Position numbers and translations under genes: made by a program. This document shows, piece by piece, positions 17,404 to 38,362 of a stretch of 64,000 nt of DNA (positions within the stretch are counted from its first letter, which is position 1; every line of letters starts with the position of its first letter). The notes beneath the pieces are model-generated. The model was not told the origin of the DNA, did not search any database, and saw nothing but the letters and a program-made list of their open reading frames with translations. The DNA comes from a virus: the IMG/VR virus record IMGVR_UViG_3300048033_000857, positions 19,338 to 83,337 of that record; one strand, written 5' to 3'.

Positions 17404-17441
17404 AAAAAGAAAAAAGACAAGTGTTGCCACTTGCCTTTCTC
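17404..17441 (-). terminator. probable intrinsic terminator ending the leftward early region
   Basis: GAAAAAGACAAGTG-TTGC-CACTTGCCTTTCTC hairpin with U-tract on the minus strand. Confidence 0.5.
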
Positions 17442-17484
17442 TTACATGCAGATCTGAGCCTGCCGTCTACACTCTTATTGTTCT

Positions 17485-17829
17485 CTAGTCTAGTCTGCTA
17501 CCTGCGTAGGCTTTGTCAAAGCCATACTTCTTAAGCACATCAGCTGCTGCTCTAGCACCTGCTTCTAGTGTGTCCACGTTCTGTGTAGGATACTTACTAG
17601 GGTTCCATATCTGGTAAGCGCCGTTGTAGGCTTTGTTAATACCTGCTTGTTTCATAGCACGACCCAACTTGGTGTTGCCTTTAATGCCGAAGATGTCTAC
17701 CCAAGCAAAGCCACAAGCACCCCAGCCACCATTGGGGAAGTGTGTGTTCTCAAAAGCATCAGCTGCTTCATATGCTGCTTCAGTTGCTTCACGTAGTGCT
17801 TGCTTGATTGTGTTTACTGTAATGTCCAT
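17485..17829 (-). CDS. early hypothetical protein
   Basis: CGFAWV motif; own promoter and GAGGGC RBS. Confidence 0.8.
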   Translation of the reverse strand: MDITVNTIKQALREATEAAYEAADAFENTHFPNGGWGACGFAWVDIFGIKGNTKLGRAMKQAGINKAYNGAYQIWNPSKYPTQNVDTLEAGARAAADVLKKYGFDKAYAGSRLD

Positions 17830-17884
17830 AGTGTTTAGCCCTCTTGCTATGTTTAACTTACTCTATTAGTATAGCATCTATATG

Positions 17885-18064
17885 CTATGTGTCAACCCCT
17901 AATGGCTCTGCTTCAACACTTGCTTCTGCCATTTCAAACATTGCATACAGCATGTCAATGCACTTGGCTTCGTTCTTCATGCTCAATGGCAGCTCACGGA
18001 TCAGTTCTTCTACTGTGTCTAGTGTTGTGTCCAATTGCTCAAGTGTGTGTGCTACAGTCTTCAT
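17885..18064 (-). CDS. small early hypothetical protein (59 aa)
   Basis: MKTVAHTLEQLDTTLDTVEELIRELPL..., AAGGAG RBS. Confidence 0.65.
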   Translation of the reverse strand: MKTVAHTLEQLDTTLDTVEELIRELPLSMKNEAKCIDMLYAMFEMAEASVEAEPLGVDT

Positions 18065-18074
18065 AGTGTTCTCC

Positions 18075-18350
18075 TTAGTACAGTTCGTATACAGTTGGTG
18101 CGTTTAGATTGTTTGCGTTACAGTATGCTTCAAGCTCACGGCATACTGTAGCTAGGAAGCGATACTTGCGCTGTGCTTCTGCGTTAGATATCTCTCCATC
18201 ACAGTGCAAGTTCTCTGGCGATAGTTTGCTGTCCAGTGTACGTGCCAAGTCATTCACTTGAGTCTGGCTCAGTGGAAATGTCATTGGAGCTGTGTTGAAG
18301 AATGCGATCCAACGGTTGTTGTCATCGATGAAGTTCTTTAGGTTTTGCAT
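18075..18350 (-). CDS. early hypothetical protein
   Basis: LSPENLHCDGEIS motif; promoter plus GAGGGC. Confidence 0.8.
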   Translation of the reverse strand: MQNLKNFIDDNNRWIAFFNTAPMTFPLSQTQVNDLARTLDSKLSPENLHCDGEISNAEAQRKYRFLATVCRELEAYCNANNLNAPTVYELY

Positions 18351-18433
18351 GTGTTTGCCCTCTATTGCTTAACTGTTATATACAGTATATGATCAATTAG
18401 AGGATATGTCAACCCCTAATTGCAAAAAAGATC

Positions 18434-18625
18434 AAAAAAAAGCCCTAGCATTGGACGAGGGCACATCCTGCTAGGGCTTAGTCTAGGAAGCAGAGCGTGA
18501 GGGCATACGCTGTTCCACTACCTTAGTTACCTTGCAGCTCTAATGGGCTGCTTCGGTGTACACACACTCGGACGAGGGCTGTCCTCCTGTGTGTTCGAAC
18601 TAGCACGAGGGCACATGCTAGTTCT
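18434..18625 (-). ncRNA. putative multi-hairpin sRNA with four GCCCUC loops, ending in an intrinsic terminator
   Basis: Stem-loops 18440-18479, 18486-18516, 18560-18594 and 18597-18624, each with GAGGGC (plus) / GCCCUC (minus) in the loop; A8 at 18434-18441 gives a U-tract on the minus strand. Confidence 0.7.
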
Positions 18626-18640
18626 ACAGTATGCGGAGCT

Positions 18641-19642
18641 CTATGCTCGACGCATCACTGTATTCTCTGCCATTGCTTCCCACTTGGTAGGGAACGCTTC
18701 GGCTAAGTCTGCTACCTTGAGCACTGTACGCAAGCTCAGTTCGCGCAGACGATTTTTATTAATATCTACAAAGTCCATGATGTCCTCTTTGACTTCATCA
18801 TCAATCTTGCGATCGTCTAACATACCATCCGACACCACTTGCTTGATGCGCAGTACTTTGTCCTTGTCCGTATCGATAGTCAAGTCCATGTAGTGGCAAC
18901 GGCTCTCTAGCGCACTCAAGTGCTCACGCAGTTTGCCTTTGACTTTGTCGAACTTCAAGTTGGTAATGAAGATCGCACTTGCTTCGAACTTAAACTTGTC
19001 CGGCACACCTTCGTTGCGCAATTTGAAGCTGTCGGTGTTCCAATGGATCCAACGATTCTTCTTTGAGTCTAGTGCTGCTTTCAAAATATTAAGGCTTAGA
19101 TCATCTTGGAAGATGCTGTCACAGTCATCGAACACAACAACCTTGCCTTTGTCTGCCATGTTAAACAGTTTGCAGTAGAGTCCAATTGGGCTCATCGCAC
19201 CTTTGATCACTTCGTGTGTCTTGCCTGCACCCAGTGTCTCCATCATAGCATAGCGTTCTAGTACTTCTTCTACACCGTGGCTCTTGCCTACACCCGGAGG
19301 GCCGCTAACGATCATTGCTCGAACGCTGCCTTTCTTGACGGCTTTGGTCATATCTTTGAGCATGTCAAACCGTTCGCGGATGCGCTCTACAATCTCAGCG
19401 TCTGACTCTTCGCGTTCGGTTGTCTCGACATTTGCTCCAACCTGCTCGTAACCCTCCGGGCCAGCAACCTTGATCTTGATGTTGCGATCCGGAAACCCAT
19501 TTACTGCCGCGCCGTCGACAGTTACGTAACCTCCTCGAGCTCCTACTTTGAAACCTTCTACTAGTGGAAAGACCATGCCTGTCATGTCTACATCTTTACC
19601 ACGAATCTTATATGTGCCTTCTGTAATTCTAACGTTTGTCAT
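18641..19642 (-). CDS. AAA+ family ATPase (early)
   Basis: GPPGVGKS Walker A, VVVFDDCD Walker B, FITN, ALESRC arginine finger. Confidence 0.85.
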   Translation of the reverse strand: MTNVRITEGTYKIRGKDVDMTGMVFPLVEGFKVGARGGYVTVDGAAVNGFPDRNIKIKVAGPEGYEQVGANVETTEREESDAEIVERIRERFDMLKDMTKAVKKGSVRAMIVSGPPGVGKSHGVEEVLERYAMMETLGAGKTHEVIKGAMSPIGLYCKLFNMADKGKVVVFDDCDSIFQDDLSLNILKAALDSKKNRWIHWNTDSFKLRNEGVPDKFKFEASAIFITNLKFDKVKGKLREHLSALESRCHYMDLTIDTDKDKVLRIKQVVSDGMLDDRKIDDEVKEDIMDFVDINKNRLRELSLRTVLKVADLAEAFPTKWEAMAENTVMRRA

Positions 19643-19681
19643 ATCGCCCTCTTTGTTTCTAACTATACGTATACTATACTA

Positions 19682-19846
19682 TCAGTTTCGAATCCTGTCA
19701 ACCAAAGATTCGTCTGTTTGTTCAACAATTAATTTAGCACCAGAGTTGATTTGGCTGCGAGCAAAGTCACTCAGCTGCTGAGTCTGCTCAGGGAATGTGG
19801 TCATTGCAGCCACACCAATCACGATACCAATTGCTAGTTTGATCAT
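19682..19846 (-). CDS. small membrane-anchored hypothetical protein
   Basis: MIKLAIGIVIGVAAM hydrophobic N-terminus; GGAGG-like RBS. Confidence 0.65.
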   Translation of the reverse strand: MIKLAIGIVIGVAAMTTFPEQTQQLSDFARSQINSGAKLIVEQTDESLVDRIRN

Positions 19847-19847
19847 C

Positions 19848-20189
19848 TTAAAACTCCTCCGGATAACCACGTGTAACTGAGTTACCACGCTTGGGCGACA
19901 CTACCATCACCTGCTCTTTGAGGAAGTCACGATAGTCTGCATCGTCTGGCAGCTTGCTGATCCACTCAGCTTCTGACTGCCACTCTACTGGAAACTCCTT
20001 AGCACCAATGCCATTCTCCATTGCAATTGCTGCAACGAACGCAACAGCATCCTGGATGCGATCCAAGTCCTGGACTAGGTAGTCACTGCCACCCTTCATC
20101 TTCCAGTATGCATTGCCTGAGGAGAACTTACCGTCCTCGCAGTGTGCGCCGTAGTTTTCAAGGAACTGTGTTGTGATTACGAAATTCAT
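19848..20189 (-). CDS. early hypothetical protein
   Basis: TQFLENYGAH...YWKMKGGSDY motif typical of T4-like phage hypotheticals. Confidence 0.75.
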   Translation of the reverse strand: MNFVITTQFLENYGAHCEDGKFSSGNAYWKMKGGSDYLVQDLDRIQDAVAFVAAIAMENGIGAKEFPVEWQSEAEWISKLPDDADYRDFLKEQVMVVSPKRGNSVTRGYPEEF

Positions 20190-20236
20190 TTGCAAACCCT
20201 CTTGCTGTTGCCCTAACTGTTATATACAGTATATGA

Positions 20237-20512
20237 TCACTTGCGCTCGATGTCAACCTTTTTCTGCATGAATTTGGAAATTAATTCCATGTCAGCTTCG
20301 GAGAAGTCGTTGCGGCCTGTGCCAAATGGAGCACCATAATGAGTGAGTGCATTGCCTACATGGCTTAGATCGTTGAGTGTACGCAAGCCGTTATCCGTTA
20401 CACCTTTGAGTCCGTGGATCTTACCGTACTCTTCGGAGAAGTCCATCATCTCGCGTCCAATGGAGATCAGTTTGCGTTCTTGTGCTGTTGCTTCGTAGAA
20501 TGATTGTGCCAT
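20237..20512 (-). CDS. early hypothetical protein
   Basis: MAQSFYE start with GAGGGC RBS; similar to part of 50549-50998. Confidence 0.75.
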   Translation of the reverse strand: MAQSFYEATAQERKLISIGREMMDFSEEYGKIHGLKGVTDNGLRTLNDLSHVGNALTHYGAPFGTGRNDFSEADMELISKFMQKKVDIERK

Positions 20513-20619
20513 GTTTGCCCTCGTTTGTTTAATTGTTATATACAGTATACGCTCACTTAGAACGTTTGTCAACCCCTAATTTGGGAGTCCGCTCCAATCA
20601 TCACATGGATCATCATACA

Positions 20620-20907
20620 TTATGCTGGCTCCTCTTCACCAAAGGTTGCATCATCTAACTCGGCCAACTCTTCTACTTCACGACCTTCTGCGAACAACAA
20701 CAACTCTACAGCCAACATCCGTGCTTGGTGCTTGGTCAACTCTATGTGATTGTGAAAGCCATCTGATGTAGTAGGTTTCTGGAAGCCTCGTGGTTTGCGT
20801 TGAGTTATCTGTATGCAAGTCAATCGATCCTTGCCACCCCAGAAGCGAGTCTGAGTCAATTCGTTCTGTGCTACACAGTCTGGGACGTTTCTTAATTCTG
20901 TTGACAT
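20620..20907 (-). CDS. early hypothetical protein
   Basis: promoter plus GAGGGC RBS. Confidence 0.75.
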   Translation of the reverse strand: MSTELRNVPDCVAQNELTQTRFWGGKDRLTCIQITQRKPRGFQKPTTSDGFHNHIELTKHQARMLAVELLLFAEGREVEELAELDDATFGEEEPA

Positions 20908-20978
20908 TTGGATTGCCCTCCTAATTTCTAACTATACATACAGTATATGATCTAAAGTTGAGTTTGTCAACCCCTAAT

Positions 20979-21176
20979 TTAATCTAAATCACATTCCCAC
21001 ACATCATTGCGGAACTGTGCTCGCAGCGCACCTAGCGGATAGTCTGCGTGTTCGAACAGCATGTAAGGTGCACCATCATAGTCCAACTTGATTGTGTGTA
21101 CAGTGACTTCGTCCATTGGCAACCACTTTGGTGCTTCGATGCTTCCGTTGTATGCTGAGTTGAATACTTTGATCAT
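20979..21176 (-). CDS. early hypothetical protein
   Basis: promoter plus GAGGGC RBS. Confidence 0.7.
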   Translation of the reverse strand: MIKVFNSAYNGSIEAPKWLPMDEVTVHTIKLDYDGAPYMLFEHADYPLGALRAQFRNDVWECDLD

Positions 21177-21242
21177 TGGATGCCCTCCATTGCTTCTAAC
21201 TATACATACACTATAGCACAGGATTCTTTACCTGTCAACCGA

Positions 21243-21315
21243 AAAAGTACGGGGAGGAGCAATTAATTCTCCTACGATGAGGGCGGTCGCTTAGAGTATG
21301 CTACCACTCCCCGTA
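21243..21315 (-). ncRNA. putative small structured RNA downstream of the tRNA cluster, with one GCCCUC loop
   Basis: 9-bp closing stem TACGGGGAG/CTCCCCGTA, internal hairpins, GAGGGC at 21279-21284, short U-tract. Confidence 0.45.
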
Positions 21316-21318
21316 TTC

Positions 21319-21402
21319 TGGTGCCGCCACCGAGACTCGAACTCGGACGCCATAAGCGAGGGATTTTAAGTCCCTTGTGTCTACCTATTCCACCATGGCG
21401 GC
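21319..21402 (-). tRNA. tRNA-Leu(UAA)
   Basis: GCCGCCA acceptor, GGTGGAATAGGTAGACAC D-arm, AGGGA-CTTAAAA-TCCCT anticodon arm, long variable arm, GTTCGAGT, encoded CCA. Confidence 0.95.
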
Positions 21403-21507
21403 TTATGTCCACGCCAACCCCGGGCAAATCTATTAATAGTCCCAGAGCCTGACAGTCGCTATGTGATCTCCTACCTCAGCGTAATCGGTAAGGAACGCTG
21501 TCGTTGT

Positions 21508-21584
21508 TGGCCTGCCCTGCAGGATTCGAACCTGCGACCCACAGCTTAGAAGGCTGTTGCTCTATCCAGCTGAGCTAAGGGCAG
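21508..21584 (-). tRNA. tRNA-Arg(UCU)
   Basis: CTGCCCT acceptor, TAGCTCAGCTGGATAGAGC, ACAGC-CTTCTAA-GCTGT, GGTTCGAATCC, CCA. Confidence 0.95.
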
Positions 21585-21589
21585 TTATT

Positions 21590-21666
21590 TGGTGGGCCCT
21601 CCGAGACTCGAACTCGGAACCTACGGATTATGAGTCCGGTGCTCTAACCAATTGAGCTAAGAGCCC
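21590..21666 (-). tRNA. tRNA with CAU anticodon (likely Ile2/lysidine type, possibly elongator Met)
   Basis: GGGCTCT acceptor paired at 1-72, CTCATAA loop, GTTCGAGT, ACCA end; lacks initiator features. Confidence 0.88.
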
Positions 21667-21674
21667 TTAGGATC

Positions 21675-21845
21675 TTACGATCCTGAAAAAGCAAACTCCT
21701 CTTGTATATCAGATTCAAACTGAGCAACCTTTTGCTCTGCTTCTTCGATCATGCCTAGCAAGATAACATCTGCTAGGTCTGTGTTGTTGTGTATAATGCG
21801 GCGAACGCCTTCAAGTCTTTCGATCAGTTGTAGTTGGTCTACCAT
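21675..21845 (-). CDS. small early hypothetical protein (56 aa)
   Basis: MVDQLQLIERLEGVRRIIHNN..., GAGGGA RBS and promoter. Confidence 0.65.
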   Translation of the reverse strand: MVDQLQLIERLEGVRRIIHNNTDLADVILLGMIEEAEQKVAQFESDIQEEFAFSGS

Positions 21846-21914
21846 TCTGTTTCCCTCTTCGTTTCAACTTATATACAGTATGCACTCGAAAGCGCATACT
21901 GTCAACCATTATTT

Positions 21915-22397
21915 TTAGATATCGTAGCCTTGTGCCTTCAAGCGAGCCACTTCAAGTGTTACCTGAGTCTCCAAGTCGTCGAAGATTGGAAAGCCGTTTG
22001 CATCGTTGCCTACGTTATAACGATCGTGTACAATCCAACCTGCTGCGGTGTGCAGGTAAAAGTATTCGCATCCGCTGTCTGTGTAGTATTCAACCATCTC
22101 CTGCACAGTGTCAAACTCTTGTGCGTCTACACGAGTCTCGCCACGGTCACGTCCGTAAAATACAGTAACGCCTTCTTCCGGAGTGTCAAAGCTGTGTCCG
22201 CTGCCTGGCATTGGAAAAATTTCTTCTGCCATGTAGCTCTGATCGCCTAGCTCTACCATCTGCGCAATCTTGCGAGCCTGTTGGTAGTGCTCTTGCAGCG
22301 TACGGCCTGCGCCTACTACATAGCCATCATAGTGTGAATATTTTGCACGGATCTTGCCTTCTGGTGTTTTGTAACCAATTGCAGCTCTAGTTCCCAT
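21915..22397 (-). CDS. early hypothetical protein
   Basis: MGTRAAIG...YSHYDGY...CEYFYL motif common in phage early proteins. Confidence 0.8.
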   Translation of the reverse strand: MGTRAAIGYKTPEGKIRAKYSHYDGYVVGAGRTLQEHYQQARKIAQMVELGDQSYMAEEIFPMPGSGHSFDTPEEGVTVFYGRDRGETRVDAQEFDTVQEMVEYYTDSGCEYFYLHTAAGWIVHDRYNVGNDANGFPIFDDLETQVTLEVARLKAQGYDI

Positions 22398-22443
22398 TGT
22401 AGTACCCTCTTTGCTAATTTATATATACACTATAACACAGCTC

Positions 22444-22653
22444 TTAGACTGTGTCAACCTCTTTTTCATACATTTCTACAGTTTCTTCAAACTGCTCTGC
22501 AAGCGAACGCAAGCTCATCATCGCAAACTCTTCTGTGATGCTGCCCGCTTCTGCTTCGTCTAGTGTCCGGATGCGTTCTGCCATCATCTCTGCGATTGCT
22601 TTATAGCTGCCACATTCACGTGCTGTCTTCATGCTGTGATCAATAAATGTCAT
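22444..22653 (-). CDS. early hypothetical protein
   Basis: promoter plus GAGGGC. Confidence 0.7.
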   Translation of the reverse strand: MTFIDHSMKTARECGSYKAIAEMMAERIRTLDEAEAGSITEEFAMMSLRSLAEQFEETVEMYEKEVDTV

Positions 22654-22716
22654 TGTGTTGCCCTCTTTGCTAATTTATATATACAGTATATGATCTAACT
22701 GCGGGGTTGTCAACCC

Positions 22717-22995
22717 CTAATTTGCATATTCACGATTCTTTTTGAGCTGCCACTTCTCTAGCACAGGCAAGCCAAACTCGTCCTCGTCTACGCAGACATA
22801 TGCCACAGTCTTCTTGACAATACCGTAACGGTAGCCTCGCATGCCGCACACGCCTTCGCCGCCTACCCAAACCTTGTGTGGGAAGTCTTCGCACATGCTG
22901 ATCGGATCGTCGTTGACACTATACTCGAAATAGTTGCCGGTGTCCCGCTCTACGAAACAACCTATTGGATCTTTGGTGTGTGTCCAGTATGCCAT
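22717..22995 (-). CDS. early hypothetical protein
   Basis: 92-aa ORF coupled to the upstream small ORF. Confidence 0.7.
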   Translation of the reverse strand: MAYWTHTKDPIGCFVERDTGNYFEYSVNDDPISMCEDFPHKVWVGGEGVCGMRGYRYGIVKKTVAYVCVDEDEFGLPVLEKWQLKKNREYAN

Positions 22996-23102
22996 TACTT
23001 GTGCCCTTTCAACAGTGCGTGAATCAGTTTGGCTTCTTTGCCTTTGATGCGAGGATCTTTTTTGATCGCTTCATCTACTGCTTTCTTGTTGTAAGTTGCC
23101 AT
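22995..23102 (-). CDS. small basic early protein (35 aa)
   Basis: MATYNKKAVDEAIKKDPRIKGKEAKLIHALLKGHK, GAGGGC RBS and promoter. Confidence 0.65.
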   Translation of the reverse strand: MATYNKKAVDEAIKKDPRIKGKEAKLIHALLKGHK

Positions 23103-23159
23103 TGGAGCCCTCCGTTTGCCTAACTGTTAATAATACTATAACACCGAAGGGCTCACTTG

Positions 23160-23333
23160 TCAACCTTTTTCTGCGATTTTTCTTCCGATCATGCTGAGTA
23201 GTAGACTGCGAGCAAGATCAACACGACCACAATCGATCTGACGCAACACTGCTTCAAGACTCTCCTGACTGGTGTCATAGCCACCTGCGTTAGGTTCAAC
23301 TGCCCACAGCATAGGGTTCTCTGGTTTACTCAT
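23160..23333 (-). CDS. small early hypothetical protein
   Basis: MSKPENP start overlapping the upstream gene end. Confidence 0.6.
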   Translation of the reverse strand: MSKPENPMLWAVEPNAGGYDTSQESLEAVLRQIDCGRVDLARSLLLSMIGRKIAEKG

Positions 23334-23871
23334 CTGCCATTTCTTCTTCTTTCCACATCTCGAAGTTCTCAACCAGAGCATACTCTTCGTCTAGGCGATT
23401 AAACAAGTCCGAACGCTCGTCTTCTGGCAGCTCGCATTGCTCTGTGAGGTTGTCGCAGTATTCGTCGCCACCTTCGCTATGCCAAAAGCCTGCAAAGTCC
23501 ATACCAGGCTCGTGATAACTTGCCTGGATGTCACAGTTATCCATATCGTCACAGAACTGCTCGTAAGCACCAATAGGCGGAGCCCATGCACTGTCAAACC
23601 AACCAGTGATCTCGGCTGTTCCGTCTTCGTTGTCGATATACTCCAATCCTTCGTCGGAGACATCCCACTTGGTGCCCCAACTGTTGACTCGCCACGAATA
23701 CCAATCTGGACCGTCTGGGTTAGGAGCAGTTGTGCCTTCTAGCTCTTTAGGCATAGGCGCCATTGCATTGAGTAGACCAAAGTCCTCGCCTACGTGAGCA
23801 TCGTCCCACAGTTGCTTGATGGTCTCAGTTGGACCGGAGATTGTGATTGAGTTGTTGCACCAATTTGGCAT
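23326..23871 (-). CDS. DUF1281/YubB ferredoxin-like family protein
   Basis: MPNWCNN, WYSWRVNSWGTKWD, FDSAWAPP, EPGMDFAG. Confidence 0.8.
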   Translation of the reverse strand: MPNWCNNSITISGPTETIKQLWDDAHVGEDFGLLNAMAPMPKELEGTTAPNPDGPDWYSWRVNSWGTKWDVSDEGLEYIDNEDGTAEITGWFDSAWAPPIGAYEQFCDDMDNCDIQASYHEPGMDFAGFWHSEGGDEYCDNLTEQCELPEDERSDLFNRLDEEYALVENFEMWKEEEMADE

Positions 23872-23885
23872 AGTAGTTCTCCCTC

Positions 23886-24068
23886 TTAGTATTCGTCGAT
23901 TAAAAATGCGTCTTCGTCTTCCTGGAAGCGTTCGGAAAGCTCGTTTGCGTCTAGCATGTCTTCAACTTCGTCTGTTGACATATACTTGAGTGCCATAGTC
24001 AGCATGTCTTCTGCTGATACTAGGCCTTCTTCTACCAATGCTAGTGCTGCGTCTCTTGAATCAAACAT
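23886..24068 (-). CDS. small acidic early protein
   Basis: LKYMSTDEVEDMLDANEL; promoter plus GAGGGC. Confidence 0.75.
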   Translation of the reverse strand: MFDSRDAALALVEEGLVSAEDMLTMALKYMSTDEVEDMLDANELSERFQEDEDAFLIDEY

Positions 24069-24219
24069 ATTGTTGCCCTCTTTTGTTTAACTTATACATA
24101 CACTATAGCACGGGTGTATGCAGTTGTCAACCCCTAAATTAAACTTTTTTAAAGTGTGTTACAGCGGGGCCTGCGGGTGTGCGCACTATAGCACAGTGTG
24201 CGCTATAGTGCAAGTTTTT

Positions 24220-24492
24220 TTAACTTTCGTATTTTACTCCTACTAAGCGCAAATAGCGTCCTCCAAATGTAGTATGCACTTTGTCACATCCTACTAGCAG
24301 CTTTAACCATTTGCAGTCACCTTCTGTAAAACGTTCTCCTACAATACCAAAGCACAAGTTGCGTTTAGCTGCATCCTTAGCATTGTCTTTCCAAACTACG
24401 TTAGTCCAACTGTTCCAAAAACTAGCATTCTTTTCTGCTAGTACAGTTGCAACCAATTTACGTGCTTGTTTAGTGTTTAGTTCATAGCGCAT
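24220..24492 (-). CDS. early hypothetical protein (GA/GG-depleted island)
   Basis: GAGGGC RBS and promoter; no prolines. Confidence 0.75.
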   Translation of the reverse strand: MRYELNTKQARKLVATVLAEKNASFWNSWTNVVWKDNAKDAAKRNLCFGIVGERFTEGDCKWLKLLVGCDKVHTTFGGRYLRLVGVKYES

Positions 24493-24568
24493 ATAAAGCC
24501 CTCCATATGCTGTTACGTTATACAAGCACTATAGCATAAACTACAGTGCTTGTCAAGTGTTTTTTAAA

Positions 24569-24922
24569 TTATGTTTCTAAGCTAGCAACTCCGTCGTCTT
24601 GCATGCCTTGCTCCGTAAATGTTACGTCAAAGCCTAGCGCAACACTTATGCTCTCCTCAAAGCCATCGTCTGTGTATATGCGCCAATCGCCTGTGCCGTT
24701 TGCGTTGTGCTCCACATAAATCATTGTGCTAGTGTCGCCATCCTCATATGTCATCTCATGTACTTCCACAGCACTAACACCTACACGCAAGTCACCTGCA
24801 TATCCCCATATGCTGCTGCCGTTGCACTCCGCAAAGCCGTTTGCGTCCCAACGTGTTACAACACAGCTATAGTCTTCGTCTGCGTGTGTTGTACGTGTTG
24901 TTTTGTTTTTTAATGTAAGCAT
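24569..24922 (-). CDS. acidic early hypothetical protein (GA/GG-depleted island)
   Basis: WRIYTDDGFE...TEQGMQ motif; GAGGGC RBS; no prolines. Confidence 0.78.
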   Translation of the reverse strand: MLTLKNKTTRTTHADEDYSCVVTRWDANGFAECNGSSIWGYAGDLRVGVSAVEVHEMTYEDGDTSTMIYVEHNANGTGDWRIYTDDGFEESISVALGFDVTFTEQGMQDDGVASLET

Positions 24923-25014
24923 AGTTTGCCCTCTTTGCTTTGTTAACTTATACATACACTATAGCACAAGTGTGCGCTGCTGTCAACTAAAAAATGCTAA
25001 CAGCAGCAACTTTT

Positions 25015-25365
25015 TTATGCAGCAAGCGCACTAGTATACTTTGCATAGTTGTTGCGTAGTTTAGCATACTGCGGATAAGCTGCGTCTGCTTGCTGCTGTA
25101 GCTTAAACAATAGCACACTGTTAGCACTAGTGCATGTGTAGTTGGGATAGCTTTTAGCTAAGTGTATAAACTGTTTAGCGGGCACACTTGTTAGCTGCAC
25201 TGTGCTTGCATGCACACGGTAGTCGCTTGCTATGCTTGCGTTAGCAAACAAATACATAGTTACGTTTAGCATGTTAGTGTTTTTGTTTACGCTTTTAACT
25301 AGTGCTAAACGCTGTGTGTTTTTATAGTTTACTAGTACTACGCTGTTACGTTTAATGTTTTGCAT
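25015..25365 (-). CDS. early hypothetical protein lacking Glu, Gly and Trp
   Basis: MQNIKRNSVV..., GAGGGC RBS, TTTACA-type promoter. Confidence 0.7.
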   Translation of the reverse strand: MQNIKRNSVVLVNYKNTQRLALVKSVNKNTNMLNVTMYLFANASIASDYRVHASTVQLTSVPAKQFIHLAKSYPNYTCTSANSVLLFKLQQQADAAYPQYAKLRNNYAKYTSALAA

Positions 25366-25457
25366 ATTATAGCCCTCTATGCTGTTAACGTTATATAAAC
25401 AATATAGCACAAGCAGCGCACTTTGTAAAGTAAAAAATGCGCTGCTGTGTAAGTTTT

Positions 25458-25721
25458 TTATGCTAGTGCTTCAAATGCTTCATCTATTATATTATGCGCA
25501 CTTGCGTCACTTGCAAAGCCCTCTTCTTCTGCAAAATCTATGCTGCTGCTACACATAATAACGTCTGTAAGCACATTAACGTTATGTGTTAAAAACACTT
25601 GCACAAGTGCGTCTGCTGTTTGTACGTCTGTTGCTACAACTGTGTTATTTACAGTTACAACAATTGCAGCGTTGCAAGCGTTTAAAAATACGTTGTTTGT
25701 TTTTGTAGTTGTGTTTTGCAT
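25458..25721 (-). CDS. early hypothetical protein
   Basis: MQNTTTK..., CSSSIDFAEEEGF; same leader as its neighbours. Confidence 0.75.
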   Translation of the reverse strand: MQNTTTKTNNVFLNACNAAIVVTVNNTVVATDVQTADALVQVFLTHNVNVLTDVIMCSSSIDFAEEEGFASDASAHNIIDEAFEALA

Positions 25722-25801
25722 ATTATAGCCCTCTATGCTTGTTAACTTATACATACACTATAGCATTAAAAGTGTAGTTTGTAAAGAGAAAAGTTTTGTT
25801 T

Positions 25802-25843
25802 AAAAACAAGCACTTAGCATTTTTCTTGTAAGTGCTTGTTTTT
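25802..25843. repeat. perfect 15-bp inverted repeat of an IHF-box-like sequence
   Basis: AAAAACAAGCACTTA-12nt-TAAGTGCTTGTTTTT. Confidence 0.8.
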
Positions 25844-25848
25844 GTTAG

Positions 25849-26016
25849 TTAAATTTCCTCTAAGCAGCGTTCTACTGTGTCTACTACAACGTAAGCGTCT
25901 GCTGCTGCGTTAAGCAGTACTAGTGCTTTTTGTGCTTCTTCAAATGTAGCAAAAGCACTAGCAACGCCTGTTGTTAAGTTACAAATAAAGTACGGAAAGT
26001 TTACAACGTTTTGCAT
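25849..26016 (-). CDS. small early hypothetical protein (55 aa)
   Basis: MQNVVNFPYFICNLTTGVASAFATFEEA..., GAGGGT RBS and promoter. Confidence 0.65.
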   Translation of the reverse strand: MQNVVNFPYFICNLTTGVASAFATFEEAQKALVLLNAAADAYVVVDTVERCLEEI

Positions 26017-26161
26017 ATTATACCCTCTATGCTGTTTAAGTTATACATACACTATAGCACAAACGGACACAGCTGTCAACTACTAAATGCATTTAAACGA
26101 ACAAAAGAACCCTTTGTTTTCAATAGGTTAGCACCTAAAGATTCCTAACGATATCAAACGG

Positions 26162-26494
26162 TTACATGCTCCAGTATGTCTCGCTGCTAGGTGACATGTA
26201 GTTGGGTGTGTTAACTGGCTCCATAAACTCTTTGCCACCAAACCCCTCTAGCACACGGCGCAGCACTTTCTTCTCTATAGTAGTGTGGAAATAGTCTGCC
26301 TCTGCTATACCATAACGGAACACAGCATGATTCGGATCAGTCTTCAACAACCCCTCTGCCTTTGCAATTCGAGTGACTGCTGCCTTCGCTGCTGCCATTG
26401 TCTTGTAGCTGCAACGGTGATCCGGACGAGCAATACCTGTGCGATCTGGCTTGCCAATAATGTAGGTTGAAGTCTTTTCATATACGTAGTACAT
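26162..26494 (-). CDS. early hypothetical protein
   Basis: YKTMAAAKAAVTR ... NTPNYMSPSSETYWSM. Confidence 0.78.
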   Translation of the reverse strand: MYYVYEKTSTYIIGKPDRTGIARPDHRCSYKTMAAAKAAVTRIAKAEGLLKTDPNHAVFRYGIAEADYFHTTIEKKVLRRVLEGFGGKEFMEPVNTPNYMSPSSETYWSM

Positions 26495-26542
26495 AGTAGT
26501 GCCCTCTTTGTTTCTAACTTATACATACACTATACAGTCATA

Positions 26543-26710
26543 CTAGCACCTTGTCAACCGATATTTTCGTTTGAGTTCACTAAAATTCCCTCTCACATAC
26601 TCATCGAACGTATACGGCTGAGTCTGACGCCATGCTTCCCATTCATCTCGGTTCTCCCAATACTGAGTCCACAGATAGGCACGAAAAGGTTTCAATTTAA
26701 ATTTATTCAT
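26543..26710 (-). CDS. small early hypothetical protein
   Basis: MNKFKLKPFRAYLW..., GAGGAG RBS, first promoter of the early block. Confidence 0.65.
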   Translation of the reverse strand: MNKFKLKPFRAYLWTQYWENRDEWEAWRQTQPYTFDEYVRGNFSELKRKYRLTRC

Positions 26711-26775
26711 CAGTTTCTCCTCTACACTGTAGTATATATAGTATACAACCAAACGACACCTTTGTCAAGACCACA

Positions 26776-27467
26776 AGCAGCGGGGCCTATAGTATGTTCG
26801 AACTGCTCTATAGTGTATAGTTCATCCTATACACGCACTCGACACTATAAGTCATTGATATCATTACACTATACACTATAGTAGAGTCACAGTGCGTGTA
26901 TAGTGTGTATAGTGTGTATAGTGTGTATATAGAGGCCTCTGGCCGAACGGTAGTAAGTGTTTGAATAATAAGGGAATTATATACACACTCAAAACCGGCC
27001 TACAGCAGCGGGGCCTAGTAGGATCTAGAGTGGATTTATGGTAGAGATGGTTCAGGTTTTGGATGAATTGGTGTGAATAAACCATTGATTTTTATACACT
27101 TTGGTGTACAATAACGCTAGGTTTTTATACACCATCTCGCGGTGACGAGAGGCATAGTTTAAATACTTTTCGACCCATTTCTGTACGTCTAATATCTGTA
27201 TGTTTTTGTACACCCTGTTAGATTATTCACGCATAATGCACACACAACCTAGCAGCGGGGCCTCTACACTAGCATGAGAGTGTGCAGCCACGCTCGCACA
27301 AGTGTCTCACTCTACTATAGTGTATAGTGTGTATAGTGCGCTACTGCTACTACTACTACTACTACTGTAGTCTATAGTGTATAGCGTATATGCGTTAACC
27401 GTAGTGTATAGTTCGAACTCATCTATATACGTGCGCATGTATAGTGTGTGATCTAGCAGCGGGGTCT
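26776..27467 (+). repeat. non-coding repeat block: 4 oriented AGCAGCGGGGCCT copies, TATAGTGTG tandem repeats, (CTA)n run, IHF boxes
   Basis: CAGCGGGG(C/T)CT at 26778, 27006, 27253 and 27457 (a fifth at 24162); (TAGTGTGTA)x3 near 26900; CTACTACTA 27347-27366. Confidence 0.8.
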
Positions 27468-27689
27468 TTATCGATATTTGTCTGCTGGATTATCACACAC
27501 TGTACTATCTGATTGTTCGCACAGTTTAAATGTAAGAGCTTTGCGTGGACCACGGGTTGTGTTTAGTGTGACTTCTCCACTCTTTTCATGAAACTCTATC
27601 TTAGTTATAGTTGCACGATCATTGTTAGGACCTACTAATATCTCTTGTCCTAGCTCTAGATTTAGATTGATAGTTCTCAGTGTTGCCAT
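27468..27689 (-). CDS. hypothetical protein (small beta-barrel-like)
   Basis: AAGGAG RBS; TAAATA motif upstream on the minus strand. Confidence 0.7.
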   Translation of the reverse strand: MATLRTINLNLELGQEILVGPNNDRATITKIEFHEKSGEVTLNTTRGPRKALTFKLCEQSDSTVCDNPADKYR

Positions 27690-27734
27690 GGGAAGTCTCC
27701 TTGTTTACTACTAATATTTATTGACACATTCAGC

Positions 27735-28067: not shown

Positions 28068-28935
28068 ACGTGTTGAAATACACACTGATAGCTCTTGCGT
28101 AGAGTTTGAGTTGGCTGATACCTCAGCTGCAAACGCTTGGTTTGACTATGCACGTGATGTGGTTAGATACACCACCAACAGTTTTTATTGTACGCATGTG
28201 TGGAGAGAAGCAGCCACAAGTGCAGAGCAGACCAATTGGCAGCAGATCAAACGTTTGACACAGGAGCTAGACCATCACATTCAAACACTAGTACGTCACA
28301 CAGGTCAAGACTATGCCAGTGTGAAGGCTGCAATTCGCAGTCTAGAGTCACAGCCCACACAAGCAGCCTGCAACACCATACACAGATTGTTTACCAGTGT
28401 GTGTCAATCAGGGCAATTAGCAGAGCACAACTCAGCTGACCTAGAACAGAGTGTACACGCTATCAATGGTTGTGTACACGAGATAGAAGTCAGCTTTGGT
28501 CAACCCTTGCGTGAGCAATGGGATGGCAGAGTATTTCAAGTGTTGTTCACCGACGCACTCACACGTGAAGGCGTGGACTTTAGTGTGTGGAACACCAGCC
28601 TTAGACATCAACAGTTTGATCATCGCACTCAAAACACTGACTATGATGTGTGGCTCAATGACGACATATTGGGCAAAGATCTACCCAGATGTTTTCTTGA
28701 TCAAGATGACCCTTGCGAATCAGACATCACAGGCAATCAGTTTCTAACACCCAGCCTTTATTTCGATCTAGATCGACACTATCATCGTATAGTAACAAGC
28801 CCAGAGTTTAACACATGGCTGGACGATACCAAGTGTGGCAAAACACTAGACAGATGGCCCTTGGGCACCATTACTAACATAACACAACTGCCTGAGGAAT
28901 ACACTCAGGTCTTGGAGTATAAATTTTATGACTGA
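28060..28935 (+). CDS. hypothetical protein
   Basis: Overlapping operon gene; HxLF..H and LGKD motifs. Confidence 0.65.
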   Translation: MARRVEIHTDSSCVEFELADTSAANAWFDYARDVVRYTTNSFYCTHVWREAATSAEQTNWQQIKRLTQELDHHIQTLVRHTGQDYASVKAAIRSLESQPTQAACNTIHRLFTSVCQSGQLAEHNSADLEQSVHAINGCVHEIEVSFGQPLREQWDGRVFQVLFTDALTREGVDFSVWNTSLRHQQFDHRTQNTDYDVWLNDDILGKDLPRCFLDQDDPCESDITGNQFLTPSLYFDLDRHYHRIVTSPEFNTWLDDTKCGKTLDRWPLGTITNITQLPEEYTQVLEYKFYD

Positions 28936-30121
28936 CAAACGATGCCTTGCGCCTTGGATACACCTACACACTTGGCCCAATGGCAGCACCTATCCCTGTT
29001 GTCTAACAGACATGCGAGACATAGTAGGCAACACCAACAACAACACTCTCAAAGAAATATTCAACGACAAACCCATGCGTGATCTACGTTTGGATTTTAT
29101 AGCAGGCAAAGAACCCAAGACCTGTAGTCGTTGTTTCGAACAAGAGCGTATGGGTCAAAGCAGCCTGCGCAATCATATCGATCGCAATTTTGGACAACAC
29201 AAAGATCTTATCGCAACTACACTACAAGATGGAACAGTAGAAGACATGCGTCTAGTATACTGGGACTTTCGATTCTCTAACATCTGTAACATGAAGTGTC
29301 GCAGTTGTGGACCGCAGTTGAGTTCGGGTTGGTACGAAGATGAAAAGAAACTCAACGGACGTTTGCCTCCGGATGTACCAGATCGAACAATAGAGAGTAA
29401 CCTATGGGAAGATCTACTACCACATTTTGATTGGGTAGAAGAAATTTACTTTGCAGGCGGTGAGCCTCTTATAATGGAGGAACACTATCGTATTCTAAAC
29501 AGACTGTTAGAACTAGAAAAAACTGATGTGCGCATACGATATAACACTAACTTTTCAACCATGCGTTACAAAAAGCTAGATGCTATTGATGCTTGGAGTA
29601 ACTTTAAAAATGTAGAAATTGGTGCTAGCCTAGACGGCATGGGCAAACAAGCTGAGTACATTCGTTCTGGTACTAAATGGCAGCAGGTACTAGACAATAG
29701 AGAACGTATGAAACTCAAAGTGCCGCATGCAAACTTCTACATCAATTGTACTGTGAGTGTGCAGAATGCATATCACATTGTAGATTTTTATAAATGGGCT
29801 GTTGAATCAGACTTTATTCCTTATGTTGATAGTTTTAGAATTAATATAGTTCAAAACCCTCTCAAATTAAGGATGCAGATGCTTCCTACTCATCATAAAC
29901 AGGCTCTTACCAAACTGTATAAAGAAACAGCAGAATGGGCCAAGACCAAAGGCAGTAACGGATTGGTAGTAGATCAGTGGGAAAGTTTGATTAATTTCTT
30001 AAATGATCAAGATCAGCCTGAAAACTTAGAGCAGTTTAAAACATACATGGGTGCTATAGATAACATAAGGAATGAAAGTTTTGCTGAAACGTTTCCTGAA
30101 ATGAGAGACCTAATTGAATGA
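28928..30121 (+). CDS. radical SAM protein with N-terminal twitch/SPASM-like domain
   Basis: CLAPW..G.TYPCC; CNMKCRSC; FAGGEP; YNTN; SLDG. Confidence 0.88.
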   Translation: MTDKRCLAPWIHLHTWPNGSTYPCCLTDMRDIVGNTNNNTLKEIFNDKPMRDLRLDFIAGKEPKTCSRCFEQERMGQSSLRNHIDRNFGQHKDLIATTLQDGTVEDMRLVYWDFRFSNICNMKCRSCGPQLSSGWYEDEKKLNGRLPPDVPDRTIESNLWEDLLPHFDWVEEIYFAGGEPLIMEEHYRILNRLLELEKTDVRIRYNTNFSTMRYKKLDAIDAWSNFKNVEIGASLDGMGKQAEYIRSGTKWQQVLDNRERMKLKVPHANFYINCTVSVQNAYHIVDFYKWAVESDFIPYVDSFRINIVQNPLKLRMQMLPTHHKQALTKLYKETAEWAKTKGSNGLVVDQWESLINFLNDQDQPENLEQFKTYMGAIDNIRNESFAETFPEMRDLIE

Positions 30122-31209
30122 GTAAGCCGTGCTTATTACCATTTATACATTTAGAAACTGACACAGTAGGCAATGTTCGTCCTTGTTGTATGTGGCGCGG
30201 CGAACCAATGGGCAATCTAAACAATCAAAGTATCGACGAAGTATGGAATGGAGAGCGTTATTCAGCTCTTCGAGAACAGTTTCGCACAAGCAAACAATTG
30301 CCTAGTGGTTGTGAATTTTGTTGGCGTGCCGAACAAGGAGGCATGCAGAGCAAAAGACAAAATGATAATGCTAGATTTGACCATCATCAGCACGGAGTTA
30401 CGCTCGATGCTCCTGTTTATTTAGATCTTAAACTAGGATCAATATGCAACATTAAATGTCGTACTTGTTCGTCACAGCATTCACAAAAATGGGCTGCTGA
30501 TGAGAAAATAATATACGGCGAACAACGTTTCCCTACAGTTCTTAATTGGCTAGATGACGACAGTCAGTTTTGGAAAGACTTAGAAAAAATTGCTCCTACT
30601 ATTGAGTTTATTGATTTTACTGGAGGAGAACCTTTTCTAGTAAAAGGCCACTGGCAACTATTAGAGTATCTTGTCGAGCACGGATACGCTGCTAATATTA
30701 AAATACATTACAACACAAACGGAACAGTACTACCCAAGCCAGAGCAACGCGACTTATGGTTGCACTTTGAATGGGTAGAAACTATGTTTTCTTTTGATGG
30801 CATAGGCAGCAAGTTTGAGTATTTACGTCATCCTGCACGTTGGGATAAAGTCCTGCATACCTTTAACACAATACTTGATGAAGCTGTTACTCATACAACA
30901 TTATGTTACACAGTTAGTTTAATGAATGTATTAGACATGAGAGAGTTTGCAGAGTGGGCCCCTGTTGATGTGTATTGGAATATGTTACACGGACCAGAGT
31001 ATTATAGTATACGTAATCTACCAGAAAATGTAAAAGACATTATTGCTGATAAAATAGATAGACAAGATGTAATAGATTACATGTACGCCGGCGAGCATAG
31101 TAAAGGTCTATGGGAAGATTTTGTAAAAACTACAAAACAAATTGATATAATACGTAACGAAAACTTTAGTACAGTATTTCCAGAACTTTCTCAACTAATA
31201 AATATCTAA
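30118..31209 (+). CDS. radical SAM protein with N-terminal twitch/SPASM-like domain (paralog)
   Basis: CLLPF..GNVRPCC; CNIKCRTC; FTGGEP; YNTNG; SFDG. Confidence 0.88.
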   Translation: MSKPCLLPFIHLETDTVGNVRPCCMWRGEPMGNLNNQSIDEVWNGERYSALREQFRTSKQLPSGCEFCWRAEQGGMQSKRQNDNARFDHHQHGVTLDAPVYLDLKLGSICNIKCRTCSSQHSQKWAADEKIIYGEQRFPTVLNWLDDDSQFWKDLEKIAPTIEFIDFTGGEPFLVKGHWQLLEYLVEHGYAANIKIHYNTNGTVLPKPEQRDLWLHFEWVETMFSFDGIGSKFEYLRHPARWDKVLHTFNTILDEAVTHTTLCYTVSLMNVLDMREFAEWAPVDVYWNMLHGPEYYSIRNLPENVKDIIADKIDRQDVIDYMYAGEHSKGLWEDFVKTTKQIDIIRNENFSTVFPELSQLINI

Positions 31210-36932: not shown

Positions 36933-36957
36933 ATATTATTATAGATAGGAAGATAAA

Positions 36958-38359: not shown

Positions 38360-38362
38360 ATT

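What the first reader, a model, noticed from the sequence alone, without database searches (positions are those of the whole stretch)
24060..26095. A 2-kb island purged of GA and GG dinucleotides
Seen (manual count): no GA on the plus strand from 24060 to 25073 and only six up to 26095 (25074, 25146, 25786, 25788, 25995, 26066). GG is absent from about 24178 to 25072. Coding exceptions fall mostly at Pro codons, and three of the five proteins have no Pro. In the core (about 24960-25850) the opposite strand is purged too: ORF 25015-25365 has no Glu, Gly or Trp, promoters use TTTACA instead of TTGACA, and IHF-like boxes use AAACAA instead of ATCAA. Known: 7-deazaguanine (preQ0) modification in phage CAjan targets GA and GGC; DarT and some cytidine deaminases target TC contexts; first-injected phage DNA often avoids restriction sites. 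Inference: these are the first-expressed or first-injected genes and must stay free of a GR/YC-specific modification or attack, even at the cost of amino-acid composition.
Basis: partly seen in the sequence, partly recalled or inferred. Interest (0 to 1): 0.88.

Follow-up and report, generated by a model that had tools for sequence, protein, structure and literature searches.

The report
Phage early genes banning UC/CC
A marine giant phage and dozens of its relatives write a few of their first-expressed genes so that the message strand has almost no UC or CC, which leaves the proteins without proline, most likely to hide these messages from a cell factor that reads pyrimidine-C, such as the terminator Rho.

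Summary
On the + strand GA is absent for 1,016 nt and GG for 897 nt. The next-longest gaps in the 83-kb contig are 222 and 250 nt.

The five genes lie on the minus strand, so the rule is no UC/CC (5'-YC) on the message strand.
- It is not explained by codon or amino-acid composition, and it also holds at codon junctions.
- It nearly abolishes proline.
- It is conserved: 48 non-redundant islands in related uncultured phage contigs total 42.5 kb and hold 47 YC, against about 3,000 expected.
- It follows the sense strand where cassettes are inverted.
- It begins at the first promoter's transcription start.
- It is the only such run in a 353-kb relative.
- None of 35 listed population variants creates YC, against 8.4 expected.

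This points to selection on the transcript, or on the displaced non-template strand, rather than DNA modification. No TGT/DpdA was found in 6 genomes.

My best reading (0.4) is that these small, mostly acidic early proteins are made from RNAs invisible to Rho, whose primary sites bind 5'-YC. The main rival (0.3) is a YC-specific RNase or RNA modifier.

The scan had already noted the same thing on a related genome (e1-5341435, e1-5341439).

The parts
24177..26044 (-). Block of five one-gene cassettes in which the RNA-like (minus) strand is almost free of 5'-YC. It has 12 YC dinucleotides at 6 places in 1,868 nt: four Pro codons, one Tyr|Arg junction, and one untranscribed gap at 25786/25788.
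26051..26079 (-). Promoter P6 (TTGACA-17-TATAGT) for g5, the first promoter of the island. Its spacer still holds YC (26065-26066). Transcription start is inferred at about 26044.
   Evidence: boundary rule
25849..26016 (-). g5, 55 aa, one Pro, no family.
25806..25840 (-). Hairpin (12-bp stem) followed by a U run behind g5, a terminator-like site read by eye. The YC at 25786/25788 lie between it and P5.
   Evidence: by eye; the scanner did not list it, since its loop is longer than 8
25757..25785 (-). Promoter P5 (TTTACA-17-TATAGT) for g4.
25458..25721 (-). g4, 87 aa, no Pro, acidic C-terminus. Its family has 7 of 7 tblastn hits with zero YC.
25401..25429 (-). Promoter P4 (TTTACA-17-TATATT) for g3.
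25015..25365 (-). g3, 116 aa, basic, with no Glu, Gly or Trp. Three Pro codons carry most of the remaining YC. Its sense strand is also poor in GA/GG.
24958..24986 (-). Promoter P3 (TTGACA-17-TATAGT) for g2.
24569..24922 (-). g2, 117 aa, acidic, beta-rich, with a conserved C-terminal FTEQGMQD...ASME motif. It is the core family of these islands: 45 of 55 tblastn hits have zero YC and no Pro.
24528..24556 (-). Promoter P2 (TTGACA-17-TATAGT) for g1.
24220..24492 (-). g1, 90 aa, basic, no Pro. It belongs to an island family of 7 members.
24162..24171 (-). GGCCCCGCTG element (minus strand) that closes the island. The same element closes 7 of 48 related islands.
24102..24130 (-). Promoter P1 (TTGACA-17-TATAGT) of the next, ordinary cassette (60-aa acidic protein, 23886-24068). 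YC reappears in its spacer (24112-24113) and from codon 3 of its gene.

Best explanation
Shown: selection keeps the RNA-like strand of a few early, host-polymerase-transcribed units free of the dinucleotides UC and CC. This holds from the transcription start to the end of the unit, in coding and non-coding parts alike. The cost is proteins without proline and without TCN serine.

Inferred, and my committed reading: the agent avoided is the termination factor Rho. Its six primary binding clefts grip 5'-YC dinucleotides on nascent RNA. A transcript with no YC offers Rho no loading site. These cassettes, which encode small, mostly acidic, probably host-takeover or anti-defence proteins, can then be transcribed to the end whether or not ribosomes follow the polymerase. 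That would matter in the first moments of infection, or once translation is disturbed.

A further inference, not tested: one of the products, perhaps the ubiquitous g2 family, counteracts the same factor. That would explain why only these cassettes need the immunity.

Confidence that the constraint acts through transcription is about 0.8. Confidence that the agent is Rho is 0.4.
For: - The depleted set is exactly {UC, CC} on the sense strand, while AC and GC are enriched (odds ratios 1.60 and 1.85). Rho's primary site is described as a 5'-YC cleft (passages of PMC12360218), and Rho as reading up to six CC or UC dinucleotides (passages of PMC13323073).
- The strand rule follows transcription. 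In L093, minus-strand cassettes are YC-free on the minus strand, next to plus-strand cassettes that are YC-free on the plus strand.
- The purge starts at the transcription start. In 13 first-of-island promoters YC is about 10 per 100 nt at -120..-61, 5.4 in the spacer (8.1 in 722 ordinary promoters), and 0.0-0.1 after +1. In 25 inner promoters it is 0 throughout.
- Island 3' ends fall in the next promoter's spacer in 12 of 48 islands, against 18 of 576 control YC.
- The constraint is frame-independent: 11 junction YC against 217 +/- 10 expected in 101 genes.
- There is ongoing constraint. None of 35 listed population variants creates GA/GG on the + strand when adjacent variants are read together, against 8.4 expected. 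Two pairs compensate each other.
- Rho avoidance by coding-strand composition has a published precedent (PMC13323073).
- These phages show the same bias in weak form genome-wide: sense YC 5.9-8.0 against antisense 11.0-11.5 per 100 nt.
- The closest cultured relatives by DnaB infect Proteobacteria, and the promoters are sigma-70 type.
Against: - The class is all-or-none. Among 826 promoters, 46 have 0 YC in the first 300 transcribed nt, only 4-8 have each value from 1 to 11, and the bulk have 17-30. Rho needs several YC, so a few should be tolerable. Eliminating proline looks like a high cost per single site.
- Rho is nearly universal, yet the trait is confined to one clade. It is absent from the 50-kb early repeat region of phage PA5oct and from the complete 383-kb relative G005, which also lacks g2.
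- Neighbouring early cassettes with the same promoters have normal YC.
- The weaker GA/GG avoidance on the sense strand of g3-like genes is not explained by Rho.
- The host is unknown.
- Flanking genes already have C<G, so they would be poor Rho substrates anyway.
Confidence: 0.4

Rival explanations
1. A single-strand-specific enzyme cuts or chemically marks RNA at pyrimidine-C, so each YC is a hit site. It could be a host defence RNase or mRNA ADP-ribosyltransferase, or the phage's own host-shutoff RNase. The island genes are those that must still be expressed while that enzyme is active, for example its inhibitor.
For: - Zero tolerance and the discrete spike at exactly 0 YC, together with the loss of proline, fit a per-site cost.
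- There are precedents for dinucleotide-level RNA attack. CmdT modifies GA in single-stranded RNA (PMC11618068, abstract and passages). SyCsx1 is strictly C-specific and SisCsx1 prefers C-C (PMC9676260, passages).
- A second GA-type enzyme could explain the extra GA/GG avoidance in g3-like genes.
- Restriction to one phage clade fits a phage-encoded agent.
Against: - No enzyme with YC (but not RC) specificity turned up. One search listed none, and the Csx1 cases are C or C-C.
- A sporadic host defence would not impose the same rule on phages of 34-51% G+C from sea, estuary and fresh water.
- No RNase, ART or deaminase family was found among 25 early-region proteins tried: the five island genes and 20 others. 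Most of these proteins match nothing, so this is weak.
Confidence: 0.3
2. The target is DNA. During intense transcription the displaced non-template strand is single-stranded, and a YC-specific single-strand DNA enzyme attacks it. Candidates are a polynucleotide cytidine deaminase, a DarT-like ADP-ribosyltransferase, or a dC-specific endonuclease like T4 endonuclease IV. Genes that must stay intact or transcribable avoid YC on that strand.
For: - It predicts the same strand rule and the same start at the promoter.
- YC is the classic context of APOBEC-type deaminases, and GG/GA loss is their footprint in retroviruses (recalled, not from a call).
- One specificity acting on both strands would explain the partly double-purged genes.
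Against: - Neighbouring cassettes with equally strong promoters are not purged.
- A nick or lesion anywhere in the genome would be as harmful as one in these genes.
- The composition is not a decay footprint. C falls only from 21.4 to 17.2%, AC and GC rise, and CT is unchanged (1.06 against 1.08).
- No such phage-directed enzyme is known to me.
Confidence: 0.12
3. One reading: phage DNA carries a GA/GG-specific (or TC/CC-specific) base modification, or faces restriction at such sites. The first-used DNA must therefore lack the sites.
For: - Motif avoidance in early-entering phage DNA, and the GA/GGC-specific preQ0 of phage CAjan, are known (recalled).
- The window carries radical-SAM, carbamoyltransferase and aminotransferase genes of unknown role.
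- Many related large contigs have the early region near a contig end.
Against: - No TGT/DpdA in 0 of 6 genomes.
- The duplex step YC/GR is abundant in most islands, only always with YC on the template strand.
- The purged strand flips with gene orientation.
- Boundaries sit at the transcription start.
- Only one 921-nt stretch of a 353-kb genome is affected.
Confidence: 0.05
4. The purge serves translation. Without YC, nothing in the message can pair with the purine-rich ribosome-binding tag (GAGGGC), or the RNA stays unstructured.
For: The early genes share a purine-rich tag (earlier notes e1-6126797 and e1-6126781). YC-free RNA cannot form the perfect complement of that tag.
Against: - Island RNA folds as stably as expected for its G+C content (difference -0.6 kcal per 200 nt, z -1.1; 187 island against 507 flank windows).
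- Local avoidance would suffice.
- G-U pairs still allow U-rich masking.
- Other cassettes with the same tag are not purged.
Confidence: 0.05
5. Neutral footprint of past hypermutation (C>T at YC on one strand), without present function.
For: TT is raised on the sense strand (odds ratio 1.33 against 1.08 in flanks).
Against: - The state is kept across proteins only 38-88% identical.
- It is kept in population variants, with compensating double changes.
- C-ending codons are preferred wherever allowed (GAC 659 against GAT 171) but banned after T or C (ATC 0 against ATT 276).
Confidence: 0.02

Closest known systems
Rho avoidance by coding-strand composition (purine bias of genes in bacteria with runaway transcription; Nat Microbiol 2026, PMC13323073, abstract passage and passages read)
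   Same: - The bias is sense-strand specific and against what Rho reads, with the complementary excess on the antisense strand.
- It constrains codon usage.
- It is independent of replication direction.
- These phage genomes show the weak, genome-wide form as well.
   Different: - Here it is absolute and not statistical: 47 YC in 42.5 kb.
- It is limited to a few cassettes of a viral genome.
- It is defined at the dinucleotide level, with RC enriched and not merely fewer pyrimidines.
- It is strong enough to delete an amino acid.
- Dependence on Rho is untested.
Motif-free messages that resist sequence-specific RNA attack: ACA-less mRNAs against MazF (recalled); GA as the target of the defence ADP-ribosyltransferase CmdT (PMC11618068); C or C-C preference of Csx1 RNases (PMC9676260)
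   Same: The logic is to remove the short recognition word from the whole message, untranslated parts included, so that it survives an enzyme that hits all other RNAs.
   Different: No enzyme with YC specificity is known. No natural phage gene set built this way has been described in the papers I could search.
Restriction-site or modification-motif avoidance in early-entering phage DNA
   Same: Local avoidance of short words in an early region.
   Different: Those are properties of duplex DNA. This one is strand-specific, flips with gene orientation, and is bounded by transcription signals. No DpdA was found.
APOBEC3-type hypermutation footprint (loss of GG and GA on one strand of retroviral genomes; recalled)
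   Same: The same two dinucleotides are lost on one strand.
   Different: Reading frames are intact and conserved, C is kept and moved into AC/GC contexts, and the state is maintained by selection across a clade.

Membership tests
Rho-evading (rut-less) transcription units | The RNA-like strand lacks Rho's primary-site ligand 5'-YC, while the antisense strand keeps it. | tested here: met
   Window: 12 YC in 1,868 nt. Relatives: 47 YC in 42,477 nt. Sense-strand GA+GG is normal in 40 of 48 islands.
Rho-evading (rut-less) transcription units | The constraint is delimited by the transcript (start site to terminator). | tested here: met
   In 13 first-of-island promoters the spacer has 5.4 YC per 100 nt and the region after +1 has 0.0. 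The 3' ends lie in the next promoter's spacer in 12 of 48 islands, against 18 of 576 controls.
Rho-evading (rut-less) transcription units | Expression becomes Rho-sensitive when YC is restored, and the host encodes Rho. | not testable with these tools
   The host is unknown and no RNA data exist. This needs the experiment described under next steps.
Rho-evading (rut-less) transcription units | Graded benefit: a few isolated YC should be tolerated. | tested here: not met
   The distribution is all-or-none: 46 promoters with 0 YC, 4-8 at each value from 1 to 11, and the bulk at 17-30.
Motif-free mRNAs resisting a sequence-specific RNase or RNA modifier | The word is absent from the whole message, frame-independent, untranslated parts included. 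| tested here: met
   Junction YC is 11 against 217 +/- 10 expected. Inner promoters and leaders have 0.
Motif-free mRNAs resisting a sequence-specific RNase or RNA modifier | A cognate enzyme with that specificity exists in host or phage. | tested here: inconclusive
   None was found in the literature searches or among 25 early-region proteins. Most of these proteins match no family.
   PF01702 found in 0 of 6 genomes. Three of them are 98-100% complete, and the control genomes were all positive.
   The purged strand flips with inverted cassettes. The boundary is at the transcription start.
Deaminase hypermutation footprint | C is lost to T with broken or decaying genes and no compensation. 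| tested here: not met
   C falls from 21.4% to 17.2%. Odds ratios: AC 1.60, GC 1.85, CT 1.06 against 1.08. Frames are intact and conserved.

The most novel reading that the evidence does not exclude
These phages, or all their hosts, possess a so far unknown activity that destroys or blocks any single-stranded RNA at pyrimidine-C. The islands would be a dedicated 'immune' gene class, rewritten down to its amino-acid alphabet, whose products (the g2 family first) switch that activity off. If the activity is instead Rho, then Rho would be a front-line barrier to phage early expression, and g2 a candidate new anti-Rho protein.
Probability: 0.3. Interest if true: 0.92.

Novelty: new variant of a known kind. 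Interest (0 to 1): 0.85.

Why it matters
This is an unusually clean natural case of a two-letter word being forbidden in a message. It covers about a hundred proteins in dozens of phages built without proline and without four of the six serine codons.

It gives a direct handle on a question that is otherwise hard to test: what nascent or early phage RNA is exposed to in the first minutes of infection. The native and the synonymously recoded cassettes are a ready-made pair of reporters for Rho, or for an unknown YC-specific enzyme.

It also flags the g2 family and about 37 other small, mostly acidic protein families as candidates for host-takeover or anti-defence functions. And it shows that dinucleotide-free runs can be used to find such genes in uncultured viruses.

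Tried and rejected
- **Identity of the island proteins.** Pfam, PHROGs and PADLOC gave nothing for g1-g5, and Pfam gave nothing for 10 further early proteins. The g2 model (pLDDT 87.7) had no PDB match by Foldseek (best E 0.25). By VIA-align the best Z was 5.6, which is within noise. The ESM Atlas gave no usable hit.
- **Complex prediction of g2 with E. coli Rho.** The result was 'no answer' (score 0.00). This is no evidence either way.
- **Cultured relatives.** There was no megablast match of the region and no tblastn match of g2 in 50,697 phage records. The first 50 kb of PA5oct, its long terminal repeat, has no YC-free run above 186 nt. The rest of that genome was not fetched.
- **Expression data.** No RNA holder was listed among 24 runs. 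Only DNA contigs could be laid.
- **Host.** g2 relatives in species genomes were 3 short contigs of metagenome bins (1.8-3.4 kb). These are probably mis-binned phage fragments, so no host can be named. All three carry YC-free runs of 410-820 nt.
- **Hairpin test for island 3' ends.** The first YC lay in a predicted 3' stem arm in 30 of 48 islands, but also in 277 of 576 control positions. The criterion does not discriminate.
- **RNA structure hypothesis.** Rejected.
- **Residual YC context.** The residual YC share no common context (47 sites), so the word is not longer than two letters.
- **Gene-content comparison.** I considered comparing genomes with and without islands to find the agent, and dropped it. 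The island-bearing large genomes are each other's closest relatives, so the list would mostly reflect kinship.
- **Literature.** Searches found no description of such gene islands. Subscription journals and supplementary files were not searchable. The supplements of PMC13323073 might hold analyses of foreign or phage genes that I could not see.
Full report
**The observation.** The window is the right-hand 64 kb of an 83,337-nt uncultured virus contig, which CheckV estimates as 23% of a genome. GA is missing from the + strand between 24058 and 25074 and again between 25146 and 25786. GG is missing between 24176 and 25073 and between 25218 and 25994.

These are the two longest GA gaps (1,016 and 640 nt) and the two longest GG gaps (897 and 776 nt) of the whole contig. 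The next longest are 222 and 250 nt, and no other dinucleotide shows anything comparable except CC, which is rare throughout. A geometric estimate gives about 2e-23 for the GA gap.

**Anatomy.** All five genes are on the minus strand:
- g5, 25849-26016
- g4, 25458-25721
- g3, 25015-25365
- g2, 24569-24922
- g1, 24220-24492

Each has its own near-consensus sigma-70 promoter with an extended -10, either TTGACA or TTTACA, then 17 nt, then TATAGT or TATATT. Each also has a GAGGGC-type ribosome site. So what is missing is TC and CC, that is 5'-YC, on the message strand.

Keeping each protein and redrawing codons from neighbouring early genes predicts 50.2 TC and 26.2 CC in the five genes. Observed are 3 and 7. 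The remaining YC in coding sequence are four Pro codons and one Tyr|Arg junction. The remaining YC in non-coding sequence sit in promoter spacers (26065-6, 24112-3), between a hairpin behind g5 and the next -35 box (25786, 25788), and in a GGCCCCGCTG element behind g1 (24162-24171).

**Conservation.** A flanking DUF1281-type protein and g2 were used to fetch 130 related loci from public viral contigs. In loci oriented with the g2 relative on the + strand, the + strand has YC-free runs of up to 2,078 nt. I found 71 islands of at least 400 nt, 48 after removing near-duplicates.

Together these 48 islands are 42,477 nt with 18 TC and 29 CC. Base composition predicts about 1,800 and 1,250 (my arithmetic). 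C drops only from 21.4% to 17.2%, and AC and GC are strongly enriched (odds ratios 1.60 and 1.85). Cytosine is therefore kept, but only behind a purine.

Family by family:
- Of 55 tblastn hits of g2 (38-100% identical, duplicates and the window's own gene included), 45 have zero YC and no Pro. Ten have 1-16 YC.
- All 7 hits of g4, and all hits of ten further island families, have 0-0.3 YC per 100 nt.
- The flanking families are normal. DUF1281 has 113 hits at 5.7-11.1 per 100 nt.

In 101 island genes (9,223 codons) there are 2 Pro codons and 1 TCN against 500 AGY Ser codons. TTC is 3 against TTT 330, and ATC is 0 against ATT 276. C-ending codons are preferred where a purine precedes (GAC 659 against GAT 171). 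YC across codon junctions is 11, against 217 +/- 10 expected under synonymous permutation. The gene set was taken from within YC-poor islands, so the totals describe rather than test. The junction and codon-choice contrasts are the informative part.

**Uniqueness within a genome.** The 353,123-nt relative G001 (98% complete) has exactly one run of 200 nt or more without YC on either strand. It is the 921-nt g2 island. Fourteen other two-dinucleotide classes reach at most 205 nt.

The complete G002 (400 kb) has a divergent g2 with 8 YC and no long run. The complete G005 (383 kb) has no g2 and no run above 226 nt.

**Transcription sets the rule.**
- In L093, plus-strand cassettes are YC-free on the plus strand. 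Two adjacent minus-strand cassettes are YC-free on the minus strand, and one of them is homologous to a plus-strand island gene of L108.
- Among 826 distinct strong promoters in all loci, the 13 that open an island have ordinary YC density upstream: 10 per 100 nt at -120..-61, 6.7 in the UP region, and 5.4 in the spacer against 8.1 in 722 ordinary promoters. After +1 they have 0.0-0.1. The 25 promoters inside islands, which read-through would transcribe, have none anywhere.
- The first YC behind an island lies within 25 nt after a -35-like hexamer in 12 of 48 islands, against 18 of 576 control YC. By eye, many of these sit in the descending arm of a terminator hairpin that overlaps the next promoter. 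My automatic hairpin criterion did not discriminate.
- The number of YC in the first 300 transcribed nt is bimodal: 46 promoters at 0, 4-8 at each value from 1 to 11, and the bulk at 17-30.

**Present-day constraint.** The stretch occurs in seawater, estuary and viral metagenomes of 18 studies. Contigs of four runs were laid on it. They gave 35 listed variant sites inside the island, out of 40 shown, with 273 more not shown.

Singly, two of these would create GA or GG on the + strand. Both are accompanied by an adjacent second change that prevents it, so jointly none of the 35 does. If the same substitution types fell at random in the island, 8.4 would be expected.

**What it is not.**
- *Not a DNA-modification motif.* There is no TGT/DpdA in the own contig or in five large relatives. 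The duplex step YC/GR is plentiful in most islands, only always with YC on the template strand. The boundaries are transcriptional.
- *Not a decay footprint.*
- *Not selection for unstructured RNA.* 187 island windows fold as stably as predicted from 507 flank windows at equal G+C.
- *Not a longer word.* The 47 residual YC share no context.

**What it most likely is.** The only factor I know that reads exactly 5'-YC on single-stranded nascent RNA is Rho. Its primary-site clefts bind YC (PMC12360218, passages), and it recognises up to six CC or UC dinucleotides (PMC13323073, passages). The same 2026 paper shows that avoiding Rho shapes the coding strand of whole bacterial genomes. The phage genomes here carry the weak form of that bias everywhere: sense YC 5.9-8.0 against antisense 11.0-11.5 per 100 nt, and 54-56% purines. 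The islands would be its extreme.

I therefore commit to Rho evasion at 0.4. Several things speak against it:
- the all-or-none character;
- the willingness to give up proline for single sites;
- the restriction to one clade;
- the normal composition of neighbouring cassettes with the same promoters.

All of these would fit better an enzyme that hits every YC in RNA. Dinucleotide-specific RNA attack exists: CmdT at GA, and Csx1 at C or C-C. No YC-specific enzyme is known, however, and a sporadic host defence would hardly constrain so wide a phage group. A phage-encoded one could. I give this rival 0.3. An attack on the displaced non-template DNA strand gets 0.12.

That only a few cassettes are affected suggests that their products are needed while the YC-reading agent is active. 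The products fall into 38 families, mostly 45-150 aa with pI 4.1-4.8, and g2 is the commonest. Possibly they act against that agent. This is inference. g2 has no recognisable fold or family.

**Unexplained.** g3 and similar basic proteins also avoid GA and GG on the sense strand beyond what their amino acids require. Two promoters in that part use TTTACA. Across relatives the effect is partial, with odds ratios of 0.34 and 0.44 in 8 islands, though one 423-nt stretch has none. A second agent of the CmdT type, or one agent acting on both DNA strands, would explain it. Rho does not.

**Earlier notes of this scan.** My reading was filed before I saw them. Two follow-ups on a related genome (e1-5341435, e1-5341439) describe the same kind of island. 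One favours Rho and the other leaves the agent open. They repeat my reading and are not independent evidence.

**Papers.** I saw passages via 'find' in PMC11618068, PMC12360218, PMC13323073, PMC9160355 and PMC9676260, and the outline and abstract of PMC12945103. T4 RegB, Alc and endonuclease IV, T5 first-step transfer, T7 early region, CAjan preQ0, the APOBEC footprint, MazF/ACA-less mRNAs and P4 Psu beyond one search are recalled.

Noticed in passing
window 24162-24171 (-), and the copies near 26778, 27006, 27253, 27457 named in note e1-6126803; 62 distinct copies in related loci: The element GGCCCCG(C/G)TG always lies on the same strand as the early genes. It often follows directly behind a hairpin and sits directly before a TTGACA promoter. 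It closes 7 of 48 islands. It is conserved across phages whose proteins are only about 40% identical. Function unknown; it could be a terminator-associated, processing or protein-binding site.
   Followed up: partly
L108 4300-4345 and L093 5575-5625: Just upstream of the island there is a consensus promoter on the opposite strand. Its transcript would begin with the complement of the GGAGCGTAC ribosome-site tag used in L108. This is possibly another anti-ribosome-site RNA of the kind described in note e1-6126778. Seen by eye.
   Followed up: no
window 25015-25365 (g3); L093 8338-8760; 8 of 48 related islands: In a subset of cassettes encoding basic, Glu/Gly-poor proteins, the sense strand is also depleted in GA and GG beyond amino-acid needs. 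No explanation so far.
   Followed up: partly
window 8508-15501, 28928-31209, 36177-40586: A carbamoyltransferase, a subtilase, three radical-SAM/SPASM proteins, a sulfotransferase-like protein and a class I/II aminotransferase. Together they look like a peptide- or sugar-modifying set in a phage genome. Their role is unknown, and no link to the island was found.
   Followed up: no
L125 5701-6705 and L126 5701-6588: The g2 domain occurs inside larger proteins of 335 and 296 aa that have Pro and normal YC content (27 and 33 YC). The fold itself therefore does not require the YC-free state.
   Followed up: no
window 17000-27700 compared with L006, L008, L093, L108: Early one-gene cassettes are shuffled, lost and even inverted between close relatives, while each keeps its own promoter. 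The YC-free cassettes stay clustered.
   Followed up: partly
whole contigs G000, G001, G002, G005: Genome-wide, long reading frames have about half as many YC on the sense strand as on the antisense strand (5.9-8.0 against 11.0-11.5 per 100 nt), and 54-56% purines.
   Followed up: partly
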